From a virus, in IMG/VR virus record IMGVR_UViG_3300048672_000512, positions 32,001 through 96,000 of that record: DNA of 64,000 nucleotides; one strand, 5' to 3'. Numbering within the stretch: the stretch's first letter is position 1; every line of letters starts with the position of its first letter. Of this stretch, positions 14,861-58,803 are shown piece after piece. Below the pieces are notes generated by a model, which searched no databases, was not told the DNA's origin, and saw only the letters and a program-made list of their open reading frames with translations. The position numbers and the translations under genes were made by a program.

Positions 14861-17365
14861 ATGACCATGTTTACCGCCTACTTTGAAACTGGACAGCTGC
14901 GCTACCGTAGTGATCTTGAAGTCCTAAACCTTTCTGAGGTGGAAGACTTCTACAAGCTAGTGCCAGTATGTTCTAGAAACTGGAAGTCCTCCGAGTTCCG
15001 TCTTCTGGTTGTTGTGGAAGCTGTAGATCGTCAAGACCTGAAGACAGGAAAGCTTCTGTCTATGGACCTTGAAAAGGAGCGCGGTTCCTCCTACTACGCA
15101 AACACAATGACTGCACTTCTACCTGGGCTGCTTGACGCCTCATGGAAGATGTACACAGACTGGCTTGCAGTAGACAATGAAACACCTGAAGTTTCTGAAG
15201 TAGCTCTTGGTGTTGTCAATTTCAACGCTGCAAAGACGTACACGCTTGAGCCTACAGCAAGAAAGGCGATGCACAAGAAGTTTGCGGATCGTGTTATACA
15301 CGTGATCGATAGCATGAAACCCACGCATGTCTTTGTGTGTGGAGACACTGCTACCGTCAACCTGTTGGAATTGCTATCCGAACAGGATGTTCCTCACTGC
15401 GAAGTGAAGCGTGGCTGGGTTTTTGACCTAACGCACAAGAACCACAAGTTCAAGCTGGTTCCATCGCTGGATCTTGAAACGCTGTACAACCCAAAGGCTA
15501 ACGAGTCTGCAGATGACGACGACGGCGACTCAGACATGGCGGACAAGTACGCAACTGCAGATCTGCTGTACTTTGTAGGTCGCAACCTTGTAAACCTGTT
15601 TGCTGGACGGCACCTGTACTCTCTTAAGAGGCTGCGTCCAAAGGCCGTGTATGTAGACACCGTGGAACAGTTTGACAAGGTCATGGACCTTGTTGAATCT
15701 CCGGACGTTGAATATGTTGGCACAGACACGGAAGGTGCTAGCCTGAATGTAGTGACCAACAAGATATTTTCTGTGCAGTTTGCTGTAGACACAAAGGTTG
15801 GCTATGTCATACCGCTGTTGCATCCAGATACGCCGTTTGATGGAGAAGAGCTGAAGTATGTTTTCAAGCGACTTCGGAAGTTCTTTGGTGCTACCAAAGA
15901 GGCAAGCCTGAAGACGCTGGTGTACATCAACGGCAAGTTTGACCTGCGCTTTCTACGTGTGCAACTAGGCATTCCTGTCATTCTGCATCGCACCTATGAG
16001 GTTAACGCCGGCGAACAGCTTCTGGATGAAAACATTGGCTTGTTTGGTGGTGCTGATTCTGGAGGTCTGCGCTTTCGCAAGGATAACGACAAGGTCCGCA
16101 CCTCGTATCAAGGCCTCATGAATGCTCTGTGCCTGTACGAGAACGACGCTTACTACAATCTGCAGTTTTCAAAAGAAGACCGTGGAAACATGGGTGCGCA
16201 ACCGTTGAATGATCCAGACGTTCTCTACTACTGCGCGCATGACTCTGTAGCTGTCTTAGCCATGGCACGCATGCAGATACGTAGAGCTAAACATACATTC
16301 GTGCGTCCGAACTTTGACAGCAAGAAGCTGGTTCCATATTACAAGTATTTCATTCGGCACGTTGTTCTACAGATGGGGGCTACGGTTCAAGGTCTTTCCT
16401 ACATGGAGCAGAATGGCTCGCCCATTGACCTTGAATACCTGACCATTCTTGCTGGAAAGAAGTCACCTTTGCTTGCTGAAATCAATCAGCTGAACAACGA
16501 CATGCGGGCCTTCCCTAGCGTAGCTGCAACAGAGAAGCTGCTGTTGAAGTCTATGGGGCGCTCCGGTGGTGGTTTGCTTGGTTCCGTTGGAACTGCTGGC
16601 ATGTTCGACATATCTAAGCGGGATCACTTGCACAAGCTGTTCTACGAAGTGATGAAGCTTAAAGTGGTGTCGCATACAGGCGGTGGTGCCGTAGCAATCG
16701 ACAAAGAGTTCATAAACACCTACAGCGCGGATTACAAGGAAGTAGCAACCTTTGGTCAGTACACCAAGGTAACGAAGCTGATGTCAACCTACGTCAAAGG
16801 GTGGTTGAAGAAGATTCAAGTTTCGGTAGACGACCTAGCTAGAAGTGTTCTGAGTCCTGGCTTTGGATTCTTTACCATTGTCACTGGACGCCTGAACAGT
16901 TTCAAACCTTCTTTGCAGAACGTACCGTCACGCGGAGGTACGGCAAAGATAATCAAGCGAATGTTTCGAGCACCCAAGGGTTTTCTTAGCGTCAATTTCG
17001 ATTACAGCGCGAATGAAATCCGTGGCGGCGCTATCCTTGCAAAGGATGATAAGCTAGCCGGAGCTTTTCAAGATGGTATCGATCTACGTAAACAGTGGAT
17101 TGTAAAACCTTCAGCTGAACTTGCAGCCAGTCTAGCAACGCGCGGTGACGTCCATATTCAGAACGTCAAACGCCTGTTTGGTGTTTGGGTTGCAAAGTCC
17201 GACCCTCGCCGTAATGCCATTAAGGCAGTTGTGTTCGGTCTTATGTATGGAAAGGGTGCAGGAACCCTCGGTAAGGACTTGAAGAAGGACGCTCTGAATG
17301 AGGCTATGGATAAGCGTCGCAGTATCGTCAAACAGATACGGGAACTTGAAAAAGAAGTAAGCTGA
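14861..17365 (+). CDS. polA: family A DNA polymerase, N-terminal part (UDG-like domain, 3'-5' exonuclease, motifs A and B)
   Basis: DTEG, NGKFD, YCAHD exonuclease motifs; TGRLNS..PSLQNVP; FDYSANEIR (motif A); RNAIKAVVFGLMYG (motif B); no motif C. Confidence 0.9.
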   Translation: MTMFTAYFETGQLRYRSDLEVLNLSEVEDFYKLVPVCSRNWKSSEFRLLVVVEAVDRQDLKTGKLLSMDLEKERGSSYYANTMTALLPGLLDASWKMYTDWLAVDNETPEVSEVALGVVNFNAAKTYTLEPTARKAMHKKFADRVIHVIDSMKPTHVFVCGDTATVNLLELLSEQDVPHCEVKRGWVFDLTHKNHKFKLVPSLDLETLYNPKANESADDDDGDSDMADKYATADLLYFVGRNLVNLFAGRHLYSLKRLRPKAVYVDTVEQFDKVMDLVESPDVEYVGTDTEGASLNVVTNKIFSVQFAVDTKVGYVIPLLHPDTPFDGEELKYVFKRLRKFFGATKEASLKTLVYINGKFDLRFLRVQLGIPVILHRTYEVNAGEQLLDENIGLFGGADSGGLRFRKDNDKVRTSYQGLMNALCLYENDAYYNLQFSKEDRGNMGAQPLNDPDVLYYCAHDSVAVLAMARMQIRRAKHTFVRPNFDSKKLVPYYKYFIRHVVLQMGATVQGLSYMEQNGSPIDLEYLTILAGKKSPLLAEINQLNNDMRAFPSVAATEKLLLKSMGRSGGGLLGSVGTAGMFDISKRDHLHKLFYEVMKLKVVSHTGGGAVAIDKEFINTYSADYKEVATFGQYTKVTKLMSTYVKGWLKKIQVSVDDLARSVLSPGFGFFTIVTGRLNSFKPSLQNVPSRGGTAKIIKRMFRAPKGFLSVNFDYSANEIRGGAILAKDDKLAGAFQDGIDLRKQWIVKPSAELAASLATRGDVHIQNVKRLFGVWVAKSDPRRNAIKAVVFGLMYGKGAGTLGKDLKKDALNEAMDKRRSIVKQIRELEKEVS

Positions 17366-17398
17366 GCTACCAACCCAAGAAATCACACGGAGAGTAAG

Positions 17399-18412
17399 AT
17401 GCCAAATGCAGGAAGTCAAACTAGTCAGACTAGTCACGATGTAACGATACGCAAGATGTTGGATGGGTGCGAGCTTCTTGTAGACGCTTACAGCCTGACT
17501 TGCGTGGATCCAGTCGTACCGTCGCCGCACGGAGCCTCCTATATGTTTGTGGATGGCACGTGGGTAGGCGCTAGTACAAGCATAACCGGAACCGTTGGAC
17601 GCAAAGCGCGTGTTATTCCACACCAAGGATCAGCACCGCCGCGTTCAAACATCACAACAGAAGTCCTTGCAACAGGAGCAAATACAAACTGCACCGTTGA
17701 AGTATGTATTCCAGGTCAGCTATGGTGGCATGGTCAGAGCATAGAGTTTGCTATTGAACCGTTTTCAGTTCTTGTTCTATCAATGACTGGTACTGGAAAG
17801 TGCGATCTGAGAATCACTGGAAGTGGCTACCAGTCCGTAACAAGCGGGCTTGGTGGCTCTGCTCGCTACAACGTATCTGCAAACAATCCACGAATCACAG
17901 ACATTCGCTCCGGCCCAGCTGTTCATACGTTCACTGCGGGTCAGGCTGGTATGGTGATTGTTCTGTGCTATGACACAATGCTGATAGTGGGACCACCAAC
18001 AGCACCTGCGGGCACGATAACGCATAGCTTCCAGCCAGTAAGCTCCAGCACATACACTGGATATAAAGGCGCTGCGTCATCTACTACTGTCAAGACGGAA
18101 GACAAGGTAAAGATCAACCTTGATAAGCTACCGTCGCATATTAAAGACAGGTATAACGCTACTATTGTTAGAAAGCTGCAAGAGTACATAACAGCGTACG
18201 AGACTGGATCTGGAATTACGCTTGTGCCAAATACCATGTCAGTAACGCAGAGTAAAGATGACCCGCCTCGCACGTTTCATGCTTCCTTTCGTTCTCATGG
18301 ATACGACAAAGAAGTGTTCAATGGACTAGACGCCTTTCTTCTTGTGAAGGGTTATGCAGGAAGTAGATACGACGTTGCTTCCTCCCTGATAGATCTTGAC
18401 TTTGAGGTGTGA
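17399..18412 (+). CDS. unknown beta-rich protein inserted between polymerase halves
   Basis: 337-aa ORF with own GGAG RBS; no intein or homing-endonuclease motifs seen. Confidence 0.7.
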   Translation: MPNAGSQTSQTSHDVTIRKMLDGCELLVDAYSLTCVDPVVPSPHGASYMFVDGTWVGASTSITGTVGRKARVIPHQGSAPPRSNITTEVLATGANTNCTVEVCIPGQLWWHGQSIEFAIEPFSVLVLSMTGTGKCDLRITGSGYQSVTSGLGGSARYNVSANNPRITDIRSGPAVHTFTAGQAGMVIVLCYDTMLIVGPPTAPAGTITHSFQPVSSSTYTGYKGAASSTTVKTEDKVKINLDKLPSHIKDRYNATIVRKLQEYITAYETGSGITLVPNTMSVTQSKDDPPRTFHASFRSHGYDKEVFNGLDAFLLVKGYAGSRYDVASSLIDLDFEV

Positions 18413-19354
18413 ATGACAACCGAAACAGAGTCACCTAAAGCAAAACTCGCAAGGCTGCGCACCGAGCTGAAAGACATAGACAGCAAGATAGAAGAGATTG
18501 AGGCAAAGGATTGGAAAGCGTTTGCGCAAGAAACCGTTGAAAAGTTCTATGGTGAGTTTGACGCTACGCATCACTATCTGGAAAACTGCGCTGACCACAT
18601 TCTGACAGACATGCACATCATGTCTCCAGTCGGGCGACGACGTAACATGTGGCGAGTTCTTACCGGGCGTCCCGGTATTCTTGCAGCTGCGCAGCGTCGA
18701 GGCAAGAACGCTCCGATTCAAGGCTTTGCTTCCGAGCTTGGTTGTGCAGCGGGTACGCTCATTATTGAGGAGCTTTATCTCTTTCTTCGACGCACACGTA
18801 AGTGGAATTGGCAGTTTCTGAATGACGTTGGTTTGTCTGTGATCGGCTACCTTCTGTCTCTGTACAACCGAGCGGTTCATGACGCTAACTATTACACGGT
18901 TCGCTACGAAACCATGATTCCACACATTCATATCATGCAGCACCAAGCCACCTACGGCGTAGCTCGCTGGTATGAAGAAAACTTTGACATCAAGTTCAAC
19001 GTAGACCCGGAAATCGAACTTGACTTCTCGGCTACTGCCGACAAGACGCACACATGGAACTGGGCGCTACACGGAACCGATGGCATAAAGACCAGTGGTG
19101 ACAGCCTGGATACGTGCCTGTTCAATTCTCTTGTTGATCAAGTGAAGCTGAAACAGATCACCAGCTCCAAGGAACTCAAGAGAATTGTGAAGGTGATCTG
19201 TGCACCCTGGGAAGATCAGGAAATGCGTGACTACCTGAATCAGAAGTACCCACTGTTGGGTGTCACTGATCTTGATACACAGATTGAAGGTTTCCTTGAA
19301 TCGTTCAACGCAAAGATTCAGGCCTTCTGTTCCGAACCAAAGAACTTTGAATAA
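18413..19354 (+). CDS. polA: family A DNA polymerase, C-terminal part (motif C)
   Basis: SPVGRRR, AQRRGKNAPIQG.ASE, AVHD (motif C); GAGGT RBS upstream. Confidence 0.88.
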   Translation: MTTETESPKAKLARLRTELKDIDSKIEEIEAKDWKAFAQETVEKFYGEFDATHHYLENCADHILTDMHIMSPVGRRRNMWRVLTGRPGILAAAQRRGKNAPIQGFASELGCAAGTLIIEELYLFLRRTRKWNWQFLNDVGLSVIGYLLSLYNRAVHDANYYTVRYETMIPHIHIMQHQATYGVARWYEENFDIKFNVDPEIELDFSATADKTHTWNWALHGTDGIKTSGDSLDTCLFNSLVDQVKLKQITSSKELKRIVKVICAPWEDQEMRDYLNQKYPLLGVTDLDTQIEGFLESFNAKIQAFCSEPKNFE

Positions 19355-50624: not shown

Positions 50625-50788
50625 CCCCTGAAAACTGCGTGTTTTCAGGGGTTTTTCGCTTCTGCACCCAGATACACGTCTCGGCCCGGAAACCCCTGTT
50701 TCCTGCTGTTTTTTCATTACGAAAACGATCGGAAACAGGCACTAGGAGACTGGAAGCGTGCTTCGGAAACCATAGATTTCAGCCAAAA
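50625..50788 (-). repeat. non-coding inverted repeat, copy B
   Basis: Exact reverse-complement arms to 8756-8796 and 8853-8898. Confidence 0.95.
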
Positions 50789-58236: not shown

Positions 58237-58803
58237 TTATTTAGGCCACACAAAGTAGTAATCGTTATCATCTTCGTCCATGCGAATGTATGACTCGGAA
58301 GCATCGTCGTACAGAAGCGGCATGCTTCCGGAGAAGTCTGCATAGACCTTCTTTCCACGTGAGTTCACCAAGTGAATCTCTTTGTGCTTGCGTGCTACGG
58401 AACACCAGTTGCGTACAGCCATTGATCCAATGTTGTCGCTTGAAGTAAGAAGCTTGTCTGCAGGTATGTACTTTCGTGCCTGCTCAAGAAGTGTTCTTCC
58501 GTATCCAAGATTGCGATACGCTAGCTTCACGTATATTGTTCCTACAGCGACTTTTTTAGGATCGCGCGTAGCAGAGATTCCTAGTATTGCGTGCACGTCC
58601 CATTCGTCGTCGGTTCCTTGCACGATAAATCCGTACTCAATACCGTGAAAGCCTGGCTTTGATATAGCACGGAACTGCTCTTGTCTATCCGCGTTCAGCA
58701 TGCTAGCAAGTTCAGTTCCGGACTTGAAGTTGACGTACACGCGGCGAGCATCAAATTCGTCCGCGTTTTCACCTTCCGCAATATGCATAGCTTCCGTACG
58801 CAT
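58237..58803 (-). CDS. GNAT-family acetyltransferase
   Basis: IYV..AYRNLGYGRTLL motif A; LLTSS..IG.MA...W. Confidence 0.75.
   Translation of the reverse strand: MRTEAMHIAEGENADEFDARRVYVNFKSGTELASMLNADRQEQFRAISKPGFHGIEYGFIVQGTDDEWDVHAILGISATRDPKKVAVGTIYVKLAYRNLGYGRTLLEQARKYIPADKLLTSSDNIGSMAVRNWCSVARKHKEIHLVNSRGKKVYADFSGSMPLLYDDASESYIRMDEDDNDYYFVWPK

What the first reader, a model, noticed from the sequence alone, without database searches (positions are those of the whole stretch)
14861..19354. Family A DNA polymerase split at a coiled-coil tip by an unrelated gene, with all three ORFs in one frame separated only by single TGA codons
Seen: Pol-N ends just after motif B with a heptad-like helix (DALNEAMDKRRSIVKQIRELEKEVS*). 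Pol-C begins with a complementary one (KAKLARLRTELKDIDSKIEEIEAK) and carries motif C. TGA 17363-65 is followed by 11 sense codons in frame to ATG 17399. That ORF ends at TGA 18410-12, immediately followed by ATG 18413. So 14861-19354 is one 1498-codon frame with two TGAs. No intein or homing-endonuclease motifs are present, and both downstream ORFs have an RBS. Inference: a two-chain PolA zipped together by an antiparallel coiled coil, i.e. a splicing-free split polymerase. Read-through isoforms or an unusual RNA-level excision remain possible. Caveat: stop-then-ATG in-frame junctions also occur at 58803/58804 and 58236/58237, so the shared frame may be partly chance.
Basis: partly seen in the sequence, partly recalled or inferred. 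Interest (0 to 1): 0.8.

Follow-up and report, generated by a model that had tools for sequence, protein, structure and literature searches.

The report
Split phage DNA polymerase with passenger gene
A large phage encodes its only recognisable DNA polymerase (family A) as two separate proteins, cut at the tip of a helical hairpin in the fingers. Relatives carry the same cut with nothing, a homing endonuclease or other genes in the gap, so this is a two-piece enzyme and not an intron, an intein or a read-through product.

Summary
Pol-N (14861-17365), an unknown 337-aa ORF (17399-18412) and Pol-C (18413-19354) share one frame with two TGA stops.

The split is real. Pfam DNA_pol_A positions 26-232 lie in Pol-N and 236-308 in Pol-C. 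The cut sits at the tip of a ~50-aa helical hairpin between motif B and helix O2, and unsplit relatives (BcepSaruman, BCSR5, phiRSL1) carry that hairpin in one piece.

Metagenomic relatives show the same cut with different gap contents:
- a 4-nt ATGA overlap in six contigs;
- a 6-nt spacer;
- a 581-aa homing endonuclease;
- a GNAT gene plus a 61%-identical copy of the 337-aa ORF.

The frame relation is not conserved, so the shared frame is chance. There is no room for an intein or a ribozyme. Both halves are under strong purifying selection, and the catalytic Asp of motif A and that of motif C lie on different chains. A complex model scores 0.82 against 0.00 for the best control, mainly through the palm sheet and also through the hairpin arms.

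The 337-aa ORF is a conserved passenger of unknown function.

The closest analogue is the 43A/43B finger-tip split of T4-like family B polymerases. I class this as a new variant of a known kind, of moderate interest. Other first-reader notes of this scan cover this same stretch of this same genome; I retrieved none on other DNA.

The parts
14861..17365 (+). Pol-N (834 aa): N-terminal region, 3'-5' exonuclease domain, thumb, palm with motif A, fingers with motif B, and the N-arm of the hairpin
   Evidence: PF00476 positions 26-232 (E 2.8e-29), PF01612 (E 1e-5), phrog_17 (E 1.4e-56). It is 35-37% identical to the N part of the single-gene polymerases of BCSR5, Motura and BcepSaruman.
17000..17002 (+). 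Motif A catalytic Asp (D714, in FDYSANE)
   Evidence: Invariant in 5 Pol-N sequences. Aligns to the DYSQ(I/K)ELR motif of Taq polymerase.
17207..17254 (+). Motif B / O-helix (R783-K798; R, K, F and Y-G conserved)
   Evidence: Invariant R783, R784, K788, F792, G793, Y796, G797, K798. Aligns to Taq motif B.
17267..17362 (+). N-arm of the fingers hairpin (about residues 803-834), ending at the new C-terminus
   Evidence: Aligns to the first helix of the contiguous insert of BcepSaruman, BCSR5 and phiRSL1. Contacts Pol-C 8-35 with a 3-4 residue periodicity in the complex model.
17363..17398 (+). TGA stop of Pol-N plus a 33-nt spacer carrying GGAG (17389-92) for the passenger ORF
   Evidence: The same GGAGAGTAA(A/G)ATG context stands before the homologue in L003.
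17399..18412 (+). Passenger ORF (337 aa), function unknown, no known family
   Evidence: No Pfam, PHROG, NCBIfam or PADLOC match. One homologue, 61% identical, at the same site in L003. pN 0.26 against pS 0.73. Residues 1-48 are conserved, so the ATG at 17399 is the start, not the shorter database call.
18404..18407 (+). GAGG ribosome-binding site for Pol-C, inside the end of the passenger ORF
   Evidence: The stop TGA 18410-12 abuts ATG 18413, an arrangement that fits translational coupling (inference).
18413..19354 (+). Pol-C (313 aa): C-arm of the hairpin, helix O2 onward, motif C, C-terminal region
   Evidence: PF00476 positions 236-308. It is 34-37% identical to the C part of the single-gene polymerases. 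Ten stand-alone homologues of 278-314 aa, plus one 217-aa fragment; one of the ten, P0007, proved to be a contig-truncated call.
18413..18517 (+). C-arm of the hairpin (residues 1-35), up to the conserved KDW
18875..18892 (+). Motif C (VHDANY) with the second catalytic Asp (D157)
   Evidence: Invariant V155, H156, D157, A158, N159, Y160. The HDA(N) form is shared by the unsplit relatives, including BcepSaruman and BCSR5, so it is a family trait and not decay.

Best explanation
This is a naturally two-subunit family A replicative DNA polymerase of a large (jumbo-type) phage.

Anatomy. The gene is cut inside the polymerase domain, in the fingers loop between helices O1 and O2. In this polymerase lineage that loop carries a ~50-aa antiparallel helical hairpin, and the cut lies at its tip. 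Pol-N carries the exonuclease domain, thumb, motif A and motif B. Pol-C carries motif C and the rest of the palm and fingers. The active site is therefore built from two chains.

How it is made (inferred). The halves are translated separately, each from its own start and Shine-Dalgarno site. They then assemble non-covalently through the shared palm sheet and the paired hairpin arms. No RNA or protein splicing is involved.

The gap. The space between the two cistrons holds different things in different phages: nothing, a free-standing homing endonuclease, an acetyltransferase gene, or the 337-aa ORF. The 337-aa ORF here is a conserved passenger of unknown function. Its stop abuts the Pol-C start, so Pol-C translation is probably coupled to it. 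That all three ORFs share a frame is coincidence.

Shown here: the anatomy, the conservation of the cut, the variable gap content, purifying selection, and the absence of intein or intron features. Inferred: separate translation, assembly and activity.
For: 1. The halves are consecutive parts of PF00476, positions 26-232 and 236-308.

2. Cultured relatives have one gene of 983-1075 aa: BcepSaruman, BCSR5, Motura, phiRSL1, PaBG, Lu11 and GR7B.

3. BcepSaruman, BCSR5, phiRSL1 and several metagenomic full-length proteins carry a contiguous hairpin exactly where the window is cut. The two arms of the window align to it with at most about 10 extra residues.

4. The insert replaces the short O1-O2 loop of Taq and Bst polymerases.

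5. The same cut occurs in relatives:
- a 4-nt ATGA overlap in six contigs from six samples, L005-L007 and L022-L024;
- a 6-nt spacer in L021;
- a 581-aa homing endonuclease in L008-L010, phrog_559 E 1.8e-74 and phrog_3339 E 1.5e-72;
- a GNAT gene plus a 61%-identical homologue of the ORF, then a terminator, in L003.

6. Every Pol-C start examined has a Shine-Dalgarno sequence.

7. Selection between the window and L003/L004: pN/pS is 0.098/0.68 for Pol-N and 0.100/0.72 for Pol-C. Catalytic motifs are invariant.

8. No other polymerase of family A, B or C is found in the 178-kb record, which is estimated 75% complete.

9. Complex model of Pol-N 480-834 with Pol-C: score 0.82, best of 3 controls 0.00. 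That mark was reached by 58 of 80 solved complexes and 2 of 110 mismatched pairs. The runs agree in at least 96% of contacts and the partner's pLDDT is at least 85. Because these are halves of a fold that has been solved many times, the pass may come from likeness to those structures.

10. No terminator-like site lies between the three ORFs.
Against: - No protein or RNA data exist; no RNA run holds this DNA.
- Assembly and activity are modelled, not measured.
- The complex pass is expected for halves of a known fold and does not prove that these chains bind.
- The record is only ~75% complete, so another polymerase could be encoded elsewhere.
- The function of the 337-aa ORF is unknown. A role in the polymerase, or a novel nuclease activity, is not excluded.
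Confidence: 0.85

Rival explanations
1. The 337-aa ORF, or an ancestor of it, is the mobile element that fractured the gene. It would be a free-standing homing endonuclease of an unrecognised type, so the window shows the causal insertion and not a later passenger.
For: The gap of a related split polymerase holds a recognisable homing endonuclease. The ORF occurs at the same site in two phages and evolves about three times faster than the polymerase halves. Gene splitting by free-standing endonucleases is known from mobE in nrdA and mobA in gene 60 (PMC2988022).
Against: No nuclease motif or family appears in Pfam, PHROGs, NCBIfam or PADLOC. A search of 1.84 billion representatives gave only a weak Ig-like repeat match. 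There is a single copy in the genome. The cut exists with an empty gap in the neighbouring split clade. A single origin of the split for the window's clade and that clade is not rejected, p-AU 0.42.
Confidence: 0.1
2. The interruption is removed so that one polymerase chain is made. Routes would be a self-splicing intron at RNA level, trans-splicing split inteins (a 'fractured gene'), or TGA read-through giving a 1498-residue fusion.
For: All three ORFs share one frame with only two TGA codons. Introns and inteins are common in phage polymerase genes, and neighbouring genes in relatives carry inteins. Fractured genes, with split inteins plus a free-standing endonuclease, are known (PMC2677866).
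Against: - Only 33 nt are non-coding, and no Rfam intron is found at E up to 10.
- No intein domains are found. The arms align to the contiguous hairpin with at most about 10 spare residues, whereas a split intein needs on the order of 130 (my own knowledge).
- The frame relation is not conserved. L003 and L005 have overlapping ATGA in another frame.
- The cut persists with a 4-nt overlap or a 6-nt spacer, where nothing could be spliced out.
- TGA is the commonest stop in the window.
- A 337-aa insert at the finger tip is absent from every relative's protein.
Confidence: 0.03
3. The 337-aa ORF is a third, lineage-specific subunit or regulator of the polymerase. It would be encoded between the halves so that all three are made in fixed proportion.
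For: It is translationally linked to Pol-C, with the stop abutting the start. It is under purifying selection and is kept at this site in two phages whose polymerase halves are about 85% identical. A split phage polymerase with an added accessory subunit is known for PhiKZ (PMC13648687).
Against: It is absent from every other split relative examined: L005-L008, L021 and L022-L024. In L003 a terminator and other DNA separate it from Pol-C. No fold could be predicted, pLDDT 30, so nothing ties it to DNA or to the polymerase.
Confidence: 0.07
4. The polymerase is a pseudogene that was broken by an insertion.
For: The gene is interrupted within its catalytic domain.
Against: Both halves show strong purifying selection and invariant catalytic residues. 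The cut is kept across lineages only about 42% identical. No other polymerase is found in the record.
Confidence: 0.01

Closest known systems
Bicistronic gp43 (43A/43B) family B DNA polymerases of T4-related phages (Aeromonas phages 25, 44RR, 31, 65; Acinetobacter phage 133). Petrov et al. 2006 and 2010, as summarised in PMC3061061 and PMC2988022.
   Same: The cut lies in the finger tip of the polymerase domain. The two cistrons are separated by anything from 2 bp to 3 kb. One member has a seg-type homing endonuclease in the gap, and it is debated whether the endonuclease made the split or invaded an existing one. The halves co-purify and are active. Unsplit relatives exist.
   Different: Those enzymes are family B; this one is family A. 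Here the cut sits at the tip of a lineage-specific helical hairpin inserted in the O1-O2 loop. The gap cargo here includes non-nuclease genes (a GNAT and an ORFan).
Exo/pol split family A polymerases of T7-like cyanophages (S-SBP1-like). Czernecki et al. 2023, PMC10201439; the paper describes this as the first split seen in PolAs. 'Split DNA polymerase' of cyanophage MAGs, bioRxiv 10.1101/325100.
   Same: A family A phage polymerase encoded as two adjacent genes, predicted to reassemble without splicing.
   Different: That split lies between the exonuclease and polymerase domains, which is a domain boundary. Here the cut is inside the polymerase domain, between motifs B and C, so the two catalytic aspartates lie on different chains.
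Aeromonas phage Aeh1 NrdA-a/NrdA-b split by mobE (Crona et al. 2011, PMC3045599).
   Same: An essential replication-related enzyme is fragmented at a site that hosts a free-standing homing endonuclease. The active enzyme is reassembled from two chains, with terminal tails acting as interaction elements.
   Different: In Aeh1 the tails arose with the insertion. Here the hairpin arms pre-exist in unsplit relatives. The enzyme family also differs.
[quoted passage not shown]
   Same: A phage DNA polymerase in two genes with an inserted ORF of no known family. The authors leave intron versus split open.
   Different: It is a different phage group (related to Zobellviridae). The position of that split within the enzyme was not available to me, so equivalence is untested.
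PhiKZ DNAP-N/DNAP-C split family B polymerase (PMC13648687); engineered finger-tip split of Pfu polymerase (PMC3061061).
   Same: These show experimentally that a polymerase cut into two chains, in Pfu at the finger tip, forms a stable and fully active complex.
   Different: Both are family B. Neither has a cargo gene in the gap.

Membership tests
Family A DNA polymerase (Pfam PF00476, with PF01612 exonuclease) | Significant profile match across the polymerase domain | tested here: met
   Pol-N scores 102.7 bits against a cut-off of 34.3, positions 26-232. Pol-C alone scores 25.2 bits, below the cut-off, at positions 236-308, but it continues the same profile. phrog_17 E 1.4e-56 and 1.8e-7.
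Family A DNA polymerase (Pfam PF00476, with PF01612 exonuclease) | Motif A Asp, motif B (R..K...F...YG) and motif C (HD) all present | tested here: met
   D714; R784, K788, F792, Y796; H156, D157. All are invariant among relatives. Motif C reads HDA instead of HDE, as in the unsplit relatives.
Family A DNA polymerase (Pfam PF00476, with PF01612 exonuclease) | Polymerase activity | not testable with these tools
   Needs primer-extension assays with the co-expressed halves.
Intein or split intein ('fractured gene', PMC2677866) | Intein splicing blocks at the new termini, and extra sequence (on the order of 100 + 35 aa, from my own knowledge) relative to unsplit homologues | tested here: not met
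   No intein or Hint Pfam match in any of the three ORFs. The arms align to the contiguous hairpin with at most about 10 spare residues.
Group I / group II self-splicing intron | A ribozyme core flanking or enclosing the ORF | tested here: not met
   No Rfam intron in 16800-19000 at E up to 10. Only 33 nt are non-coding. Relatives are split with a 4-nt overlap or a 6-nt spacer.
Gene split occupied by a free-standing homing endonuclease (mobE/nrdA, seg/gene 43 type) | A recognisable homing endonuclease gene between the halves | tested here: not met
   In the window the 337-aa ORF matches no nuclease family. The feature is met in relatives L008-L010, and partial copies sit upstream of Pol-C in L011 and L012.
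Gene split occupied by a free-standing homing endonuclease (mobE/nrdA, seg/gene 43 type) | Each half has its own start, stop and RBS, and unsplit orthologues exist in related phages | tested here: met
Programmed stop-codon read-through or TGA recoding | An in-frame arrangement conserved in relatives; TGA not used as an ordinary stop | tested here: not met
   The frame differs in L003 and L005. TGA ends 32 of 67 ORFs in the window.

The most novel reading that the evidence does not exclude
The helical hairpin at the family A finger tip is a pre-adapted clasp that lets the gene survive being cut. The site has therefore been cut, or re-fused, more than once, and serves as a landing pad where homing endonucleases and cargo genes come and go. 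This would be the first intra-catalytic-domain split described for a family A polymerase, with a composite active site. In addition, the 337-aa ORFan could be a new kind of mobile-element protein or a polymerase-linked factor. One speculative role would be tuning nucleotide choice in a phage that also encodes a 7-deazaguanine DNA-modification pathway, given that a finger-tip split changed analogue tolerance in Pfu polymerase.
Probability: 0.15. Interest if true: 0.7.

Novelty: new variant of a known kind. Interest (0 to 1): 0.5.

Why it matters
The case shows that a family A polymerase can work with its two catalytic aspartates on different polypeptides. Evolution appears to have reached in family A the same finger-tip solution already known for family B (T4-like gp43).

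It gives a natural series for studying how essential genes tolerate fragmentation by mobile DNA: unsplit with hairpin, split with an empty gap, split with an endonuclease, and split with cargo.

Naturally self-assembling polymerase halves with a zipper-like clasp are also of practical interest for split-enzyme engineering. For annotation, stand-alone Pol-C proteins of about 290-315 aa should not be called pseudogenes or fragments.

Tried and rejected
Searches that found nothing:
- Near-identical DNA search and a protein search with the 337-aa ORF in 50,697 phage records: no match.
- IMG/VR scan with Pol-C: no relatives apart from the genome itself.
- The 337-aa ORF in Pfam, PHROGs, NCBIfam, PADLOC and a PDB profile search: nothing.
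- phmmer of the ORF over 1.84 billion representatives: only a weak Ig-like repeat match, E 4.5e-6, 32% over 40 residues.
- ESM Atlas: no usable hit. Its own model has pLDDT 0.38, so the structural neighbours are meaningless.
- AlphaFold2 with a 2-row alignment: mean pLDDT 29.8. I ran no fold search on it.
- Repeats around the insert: only short, chance-level matches and no target-site duplication.
- Homologues of the L008 endonuclease, the L003 GNAT or the L004 74-aa ORF in the window's genome: none.
- RNA evidence: no RNA holder listed.

Corrected along the way:
- P0007 looked like a fourth split lineage. It is a contig-truncated full-length gene, with the frame open to the contig start.
- P0014 is likewise a truncated unsplit gene.

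Limits of two estimates:
- dN/dS values are unreliable because dS is saturated (pS about 0.7), so I use only pN much lower than pS.
- The AU test group was named after I had seen the tree, so p = 0.003 is indicative only.

Full report
**1. Observation**

- Pol-N, 14861-17365, 834 aa.
- An unknown ORF, 17399-18412, 337 aa.
- Pol-C, 18413-19354, 313 aa.

One frame runs through all of them, with two TGA codons. Eleven sense codons precede ATG 17399, and ATG 18413 directly follows the second TGA. Both downstream ORFs have a Shine-Dalgarno sequence: GGAG at 17389-92 and GAGG at 18404-07.

Pfam DNA_pol_A matches profile positions 26-232 in Pol-N and 236-308 in Pol-C. PHROG 17 behaves the same way. 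The two ORFs are therefore consecutive pieces of one family A polymerase. The middle ORF matches nothing.

A Logan assembly of the probable source run crosses 16900-18900 in a single contig without a difference. This argues against an assembly artefact, although it is the same sample.

**2. Where the cut lies**

The window comes from a 178-kb IMG/VR virus record estimated 75% complete. Its polymerase is 30-37% identical to the single-gene polymerases (983-1075 aa) of large phages: BCSR5, Motura, BcepSaruman/Sauron, phiRSL1, PaBG, Lu11 and GR7B.

Pol-N ends just after motif B, at the point where Taq polymerase has ...LSQEL. Pol-C picks up at the Taq/Bst segment EEAQ.., which I identify from my own knowledge as helix O2.

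In that O1-O2 loop, several proteins carry a contiguous insert of about 50 residues made of two helices. These are BcepSaruman, BCSR5, phiRSL1 and several metagenomic full-length proteins (P0016, P0018, P0020, P0021, P0025). Motura, PaBG, Lu11, GR7B and P0026-P0031 lack it.

The window's two 'heptad-like' tails align to the two helices of this insert, and the cut is at its tip. At most about ten residues are left over. This leaves no room for split-intein halves, and no intein domain is detected.

**3. The cut is conserved and the gap is not**

A length-restricted search found ten stand-alone Pol-C proteins of 278-314 aa at 38-85% identity, plus a 217-aa fragment. One of the ten, P0007, later proved to be a contig-truncated call. 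Their contexts are as follows.

| Loci | Gap between Pol-N and Pol-C |
|---|---|
| L005-L007, L022-L024 (six samples) | None. The Pol-N stop overlaps the Pol-C start (ATGA), in a different frame. The SD (CTGGAGG) is embedded in the ELEA codons of the N-arm. |
| L021 | 6-nt spacer |
| L008-L010 | A 581-aa gene overlapping both neighbours. It is a homing endonuclease (phrog_559 E 1.8e-74, phrog_3339 E 1.5e-72) with weak Vsr/DUF559-like Pfam hits. |
| L011, L012 | The end of the same kind of endonuclease gene lies upstream of Pol-C |
| L003 | Pol-N 85% identical to the window's, then a GNAT acetyltransferase (phrog_13728 E 8.9e-45) starting at an ATGA overlap, then a 333-aa homologue (61% identical) of the window's ORF, then a terminator-like hairpin and more non-coding DNA to the contig end |
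| L004 (same run as L003) | A 74-aa ORF, then Pol-C about 85% identical to the window's |

The two-cistron state is therefore stable across lineages only about 42% identical, while gap content and frame relation vary. This rules out any reading that needs the frame (read-through) or the insert (intron).

In the window itself, 11 of 40 close same-strand gene pairs are in frame and TGA is the commonest stop. Two in-frame junctions in a row have a chance of about 0.08.

**4. How often did it happen?**

I built a maximum-likelihood tree of the Pol-C region with 46 rows. It places the split forms in three groups among unsplit ones:
- the window plus P0004;
- the P0005/6/8/10/11/12 clade;
- P0009.

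An apparent fourth group, P0007, is a truncated gene call.

Holding all nine true split rows together costs 60.7 log-likelihood units, p-AU 0.003. The group was named after I had seen the tree, so this is indicative only. Holding the first two groups together is not rejected, p-AU 0.42. At least two cut or re-fusion events are therefore likely.

Within the second group, endonuclease-occupied and empty gaps are interleaved, as expected for a homing element that comes and goes. The unsplit relatives nearest to P0009 lack the hairpin, whereas P0009 has it. I cannot tell whether the hairpin was lost in them or travelled with the split.

**5. Is it functional, and how does it work?**

- Selection. 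Between the window and L003/L004, non-synonymous differences are far rarer than synonymous ones in both halves (pN 0.10, pS about 0.7; dS is saturated).
- Catalytic residues. All are invariant: motif A D714 and motif B in Pol-N, motif C H156-D157 in Pol-C. The HDA form of motif C is shared with the unsplit cultured relatives.
- Other polymerases. No family A, B or C polymerase is found elsewhere in the record.
- Complex model. Pol-N 480-834 with Pol-C scores 0.82, against 0.00 for the best of three controls. That mark was reached by 58 of 80 solved complexes and 2 of 110 mismatched pairs. The runs agree in at least 96% of contacts and the partner's pLDDT is at least 85.
- Caveat on the model. 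As halves of a much-solved fold, the pass may reflect likeness to known structures and does not prove binding.
- Interface. The most confident contacts join the motif A strand (707-713) to the motif C strands (160-165, 202-207). The arms 803-833 and 8-35 touch with a helical periodicity.

The most likely mechanism is separate translation followed by non-covalent assembly. The palm sheet is the main interface and the hairpin arms act as an added clasp.

No terminator-like site separates the three ORFs, and the passenger's stop abuts the Pol-C start. Pol-C is therefore probably made by coupled translation (inference).

**6. The passenger ORF**

- It has one known homologue, at the same site.
- It is a real gene: pN 0.26 against pS 0.73, with a conserved N-terminus and SD that support the ATG at 17399 over the shorter database call.
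- It has no detectable family, nuclease motif or defence-system match.
- Structure prediction failed.
- It is absent from every other split relative examined, so it is not needed for the split enzyme.

I read it as cargo in a permissive intercistronic slot. A novel mobile-element protein (about 0.1) or a lineage-specific polymerase partner (about 0.07) remain possible.

**7. Comparison with what is known**

The nearest parallel is the bicistronic gp43 of T4-related phages. These are family B enzymes cut in the finger tip, with gaps of 2 bp to 3 kb and a seg endonuclease in one member. The halves co-purify and are active (PMC3061061 and PMC2988022, citing Petrov et al. 2006 and 2010).

For family A, a 2023 survey reported the exo/pol split of T7-like cyanophages as the first split in PolAs (PMC10201439). 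That cut lies at a domain boundary, not inside the catalytic domain. OM43 phages MEP401/402 have a polymerase split with a small unknown ORF, but the position was not available to me (PMC10580990).

Aeh1 NrdA split by mobE shows assembly through terminal tails (PMC3045599). PhiKZ's split family B polymerase (PMC13648687) and an engineered Pfu finger-tip split (PMC3061061) show that such enzymes work.

In the literature I could search, I found no description of a family A polymerase cut between motifs B and C.

**8. Verdict**

The core of the interpretation, a splicing-free two-chain PolA cut at a hairpin tip, is supported. The significance of the shared frame is not, and the coiled coil is probably not the main glue.

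This is a new variant of a known kind: finger-tip-split phage polymerases and genes fragmented at sites used by homing endonucleases. Interest is moderate.

Noticed in passing
L003:9935-10065; window 50693-50760; G000:C1:157787 (outside the window): A conserved intergenic hairpin element (CCCCTGTTTCC ... TTTTTCATTAC ... GGAAACA) occurs twice in the window's genome. It also occurs, after a terminator-like stem-loop, inside the polymerase gap of the related phage contig L003. It may be a shared regulatory or mobile intergenic element of this phage group.
   Followed up: partly
L005:1-5439, L006:1-5438, L007:1-5439: Replication-module genes upstream of the split polymerase in the related contigs carry inteins (Intein_splicing, LAGLIDADG_3). 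One gene is 875 aa with the intein in L005 and L006 but 639 aa without it in L007. These phages are heavily colonised by mobile elements.
   Followed up: no
L012:3-239 versus L013:1-96: The identical Pol-C (P0011) is preceded in L012 by the end of an endonuclease-like ORF. In L013 the upstream ORF ends with residues that the L012 DNA gives in another frame. This suggests a frameshifted, possibly decaying, endonuclease copy, or a sequencing error.
   Followed up: partly
The same order (PTPS/QueD, AAA, ..., radical SAM, Rap1a-like, Pol-N) is kept in L003.
   Followed up: no
window 17399-17545: The database gene call for the passenger ORF (P0001, 289 aa) starts at Met49. Conservation of residues 1-48 and of the upstream GGAG in L003 shows that the true start is the ATG at 17399.
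   Followed up: yes
L021:1-1521 versus P0026-P0031: The split polymerase of L021 has the finger-tip hairpin, while its nearest unsplit relatives in the tree lack it. Hairpin presence and the split may be linked there, either through loss of the hairpin in the unsplit ones or through transfer of the hairpin with the split.
   Followed up: partly
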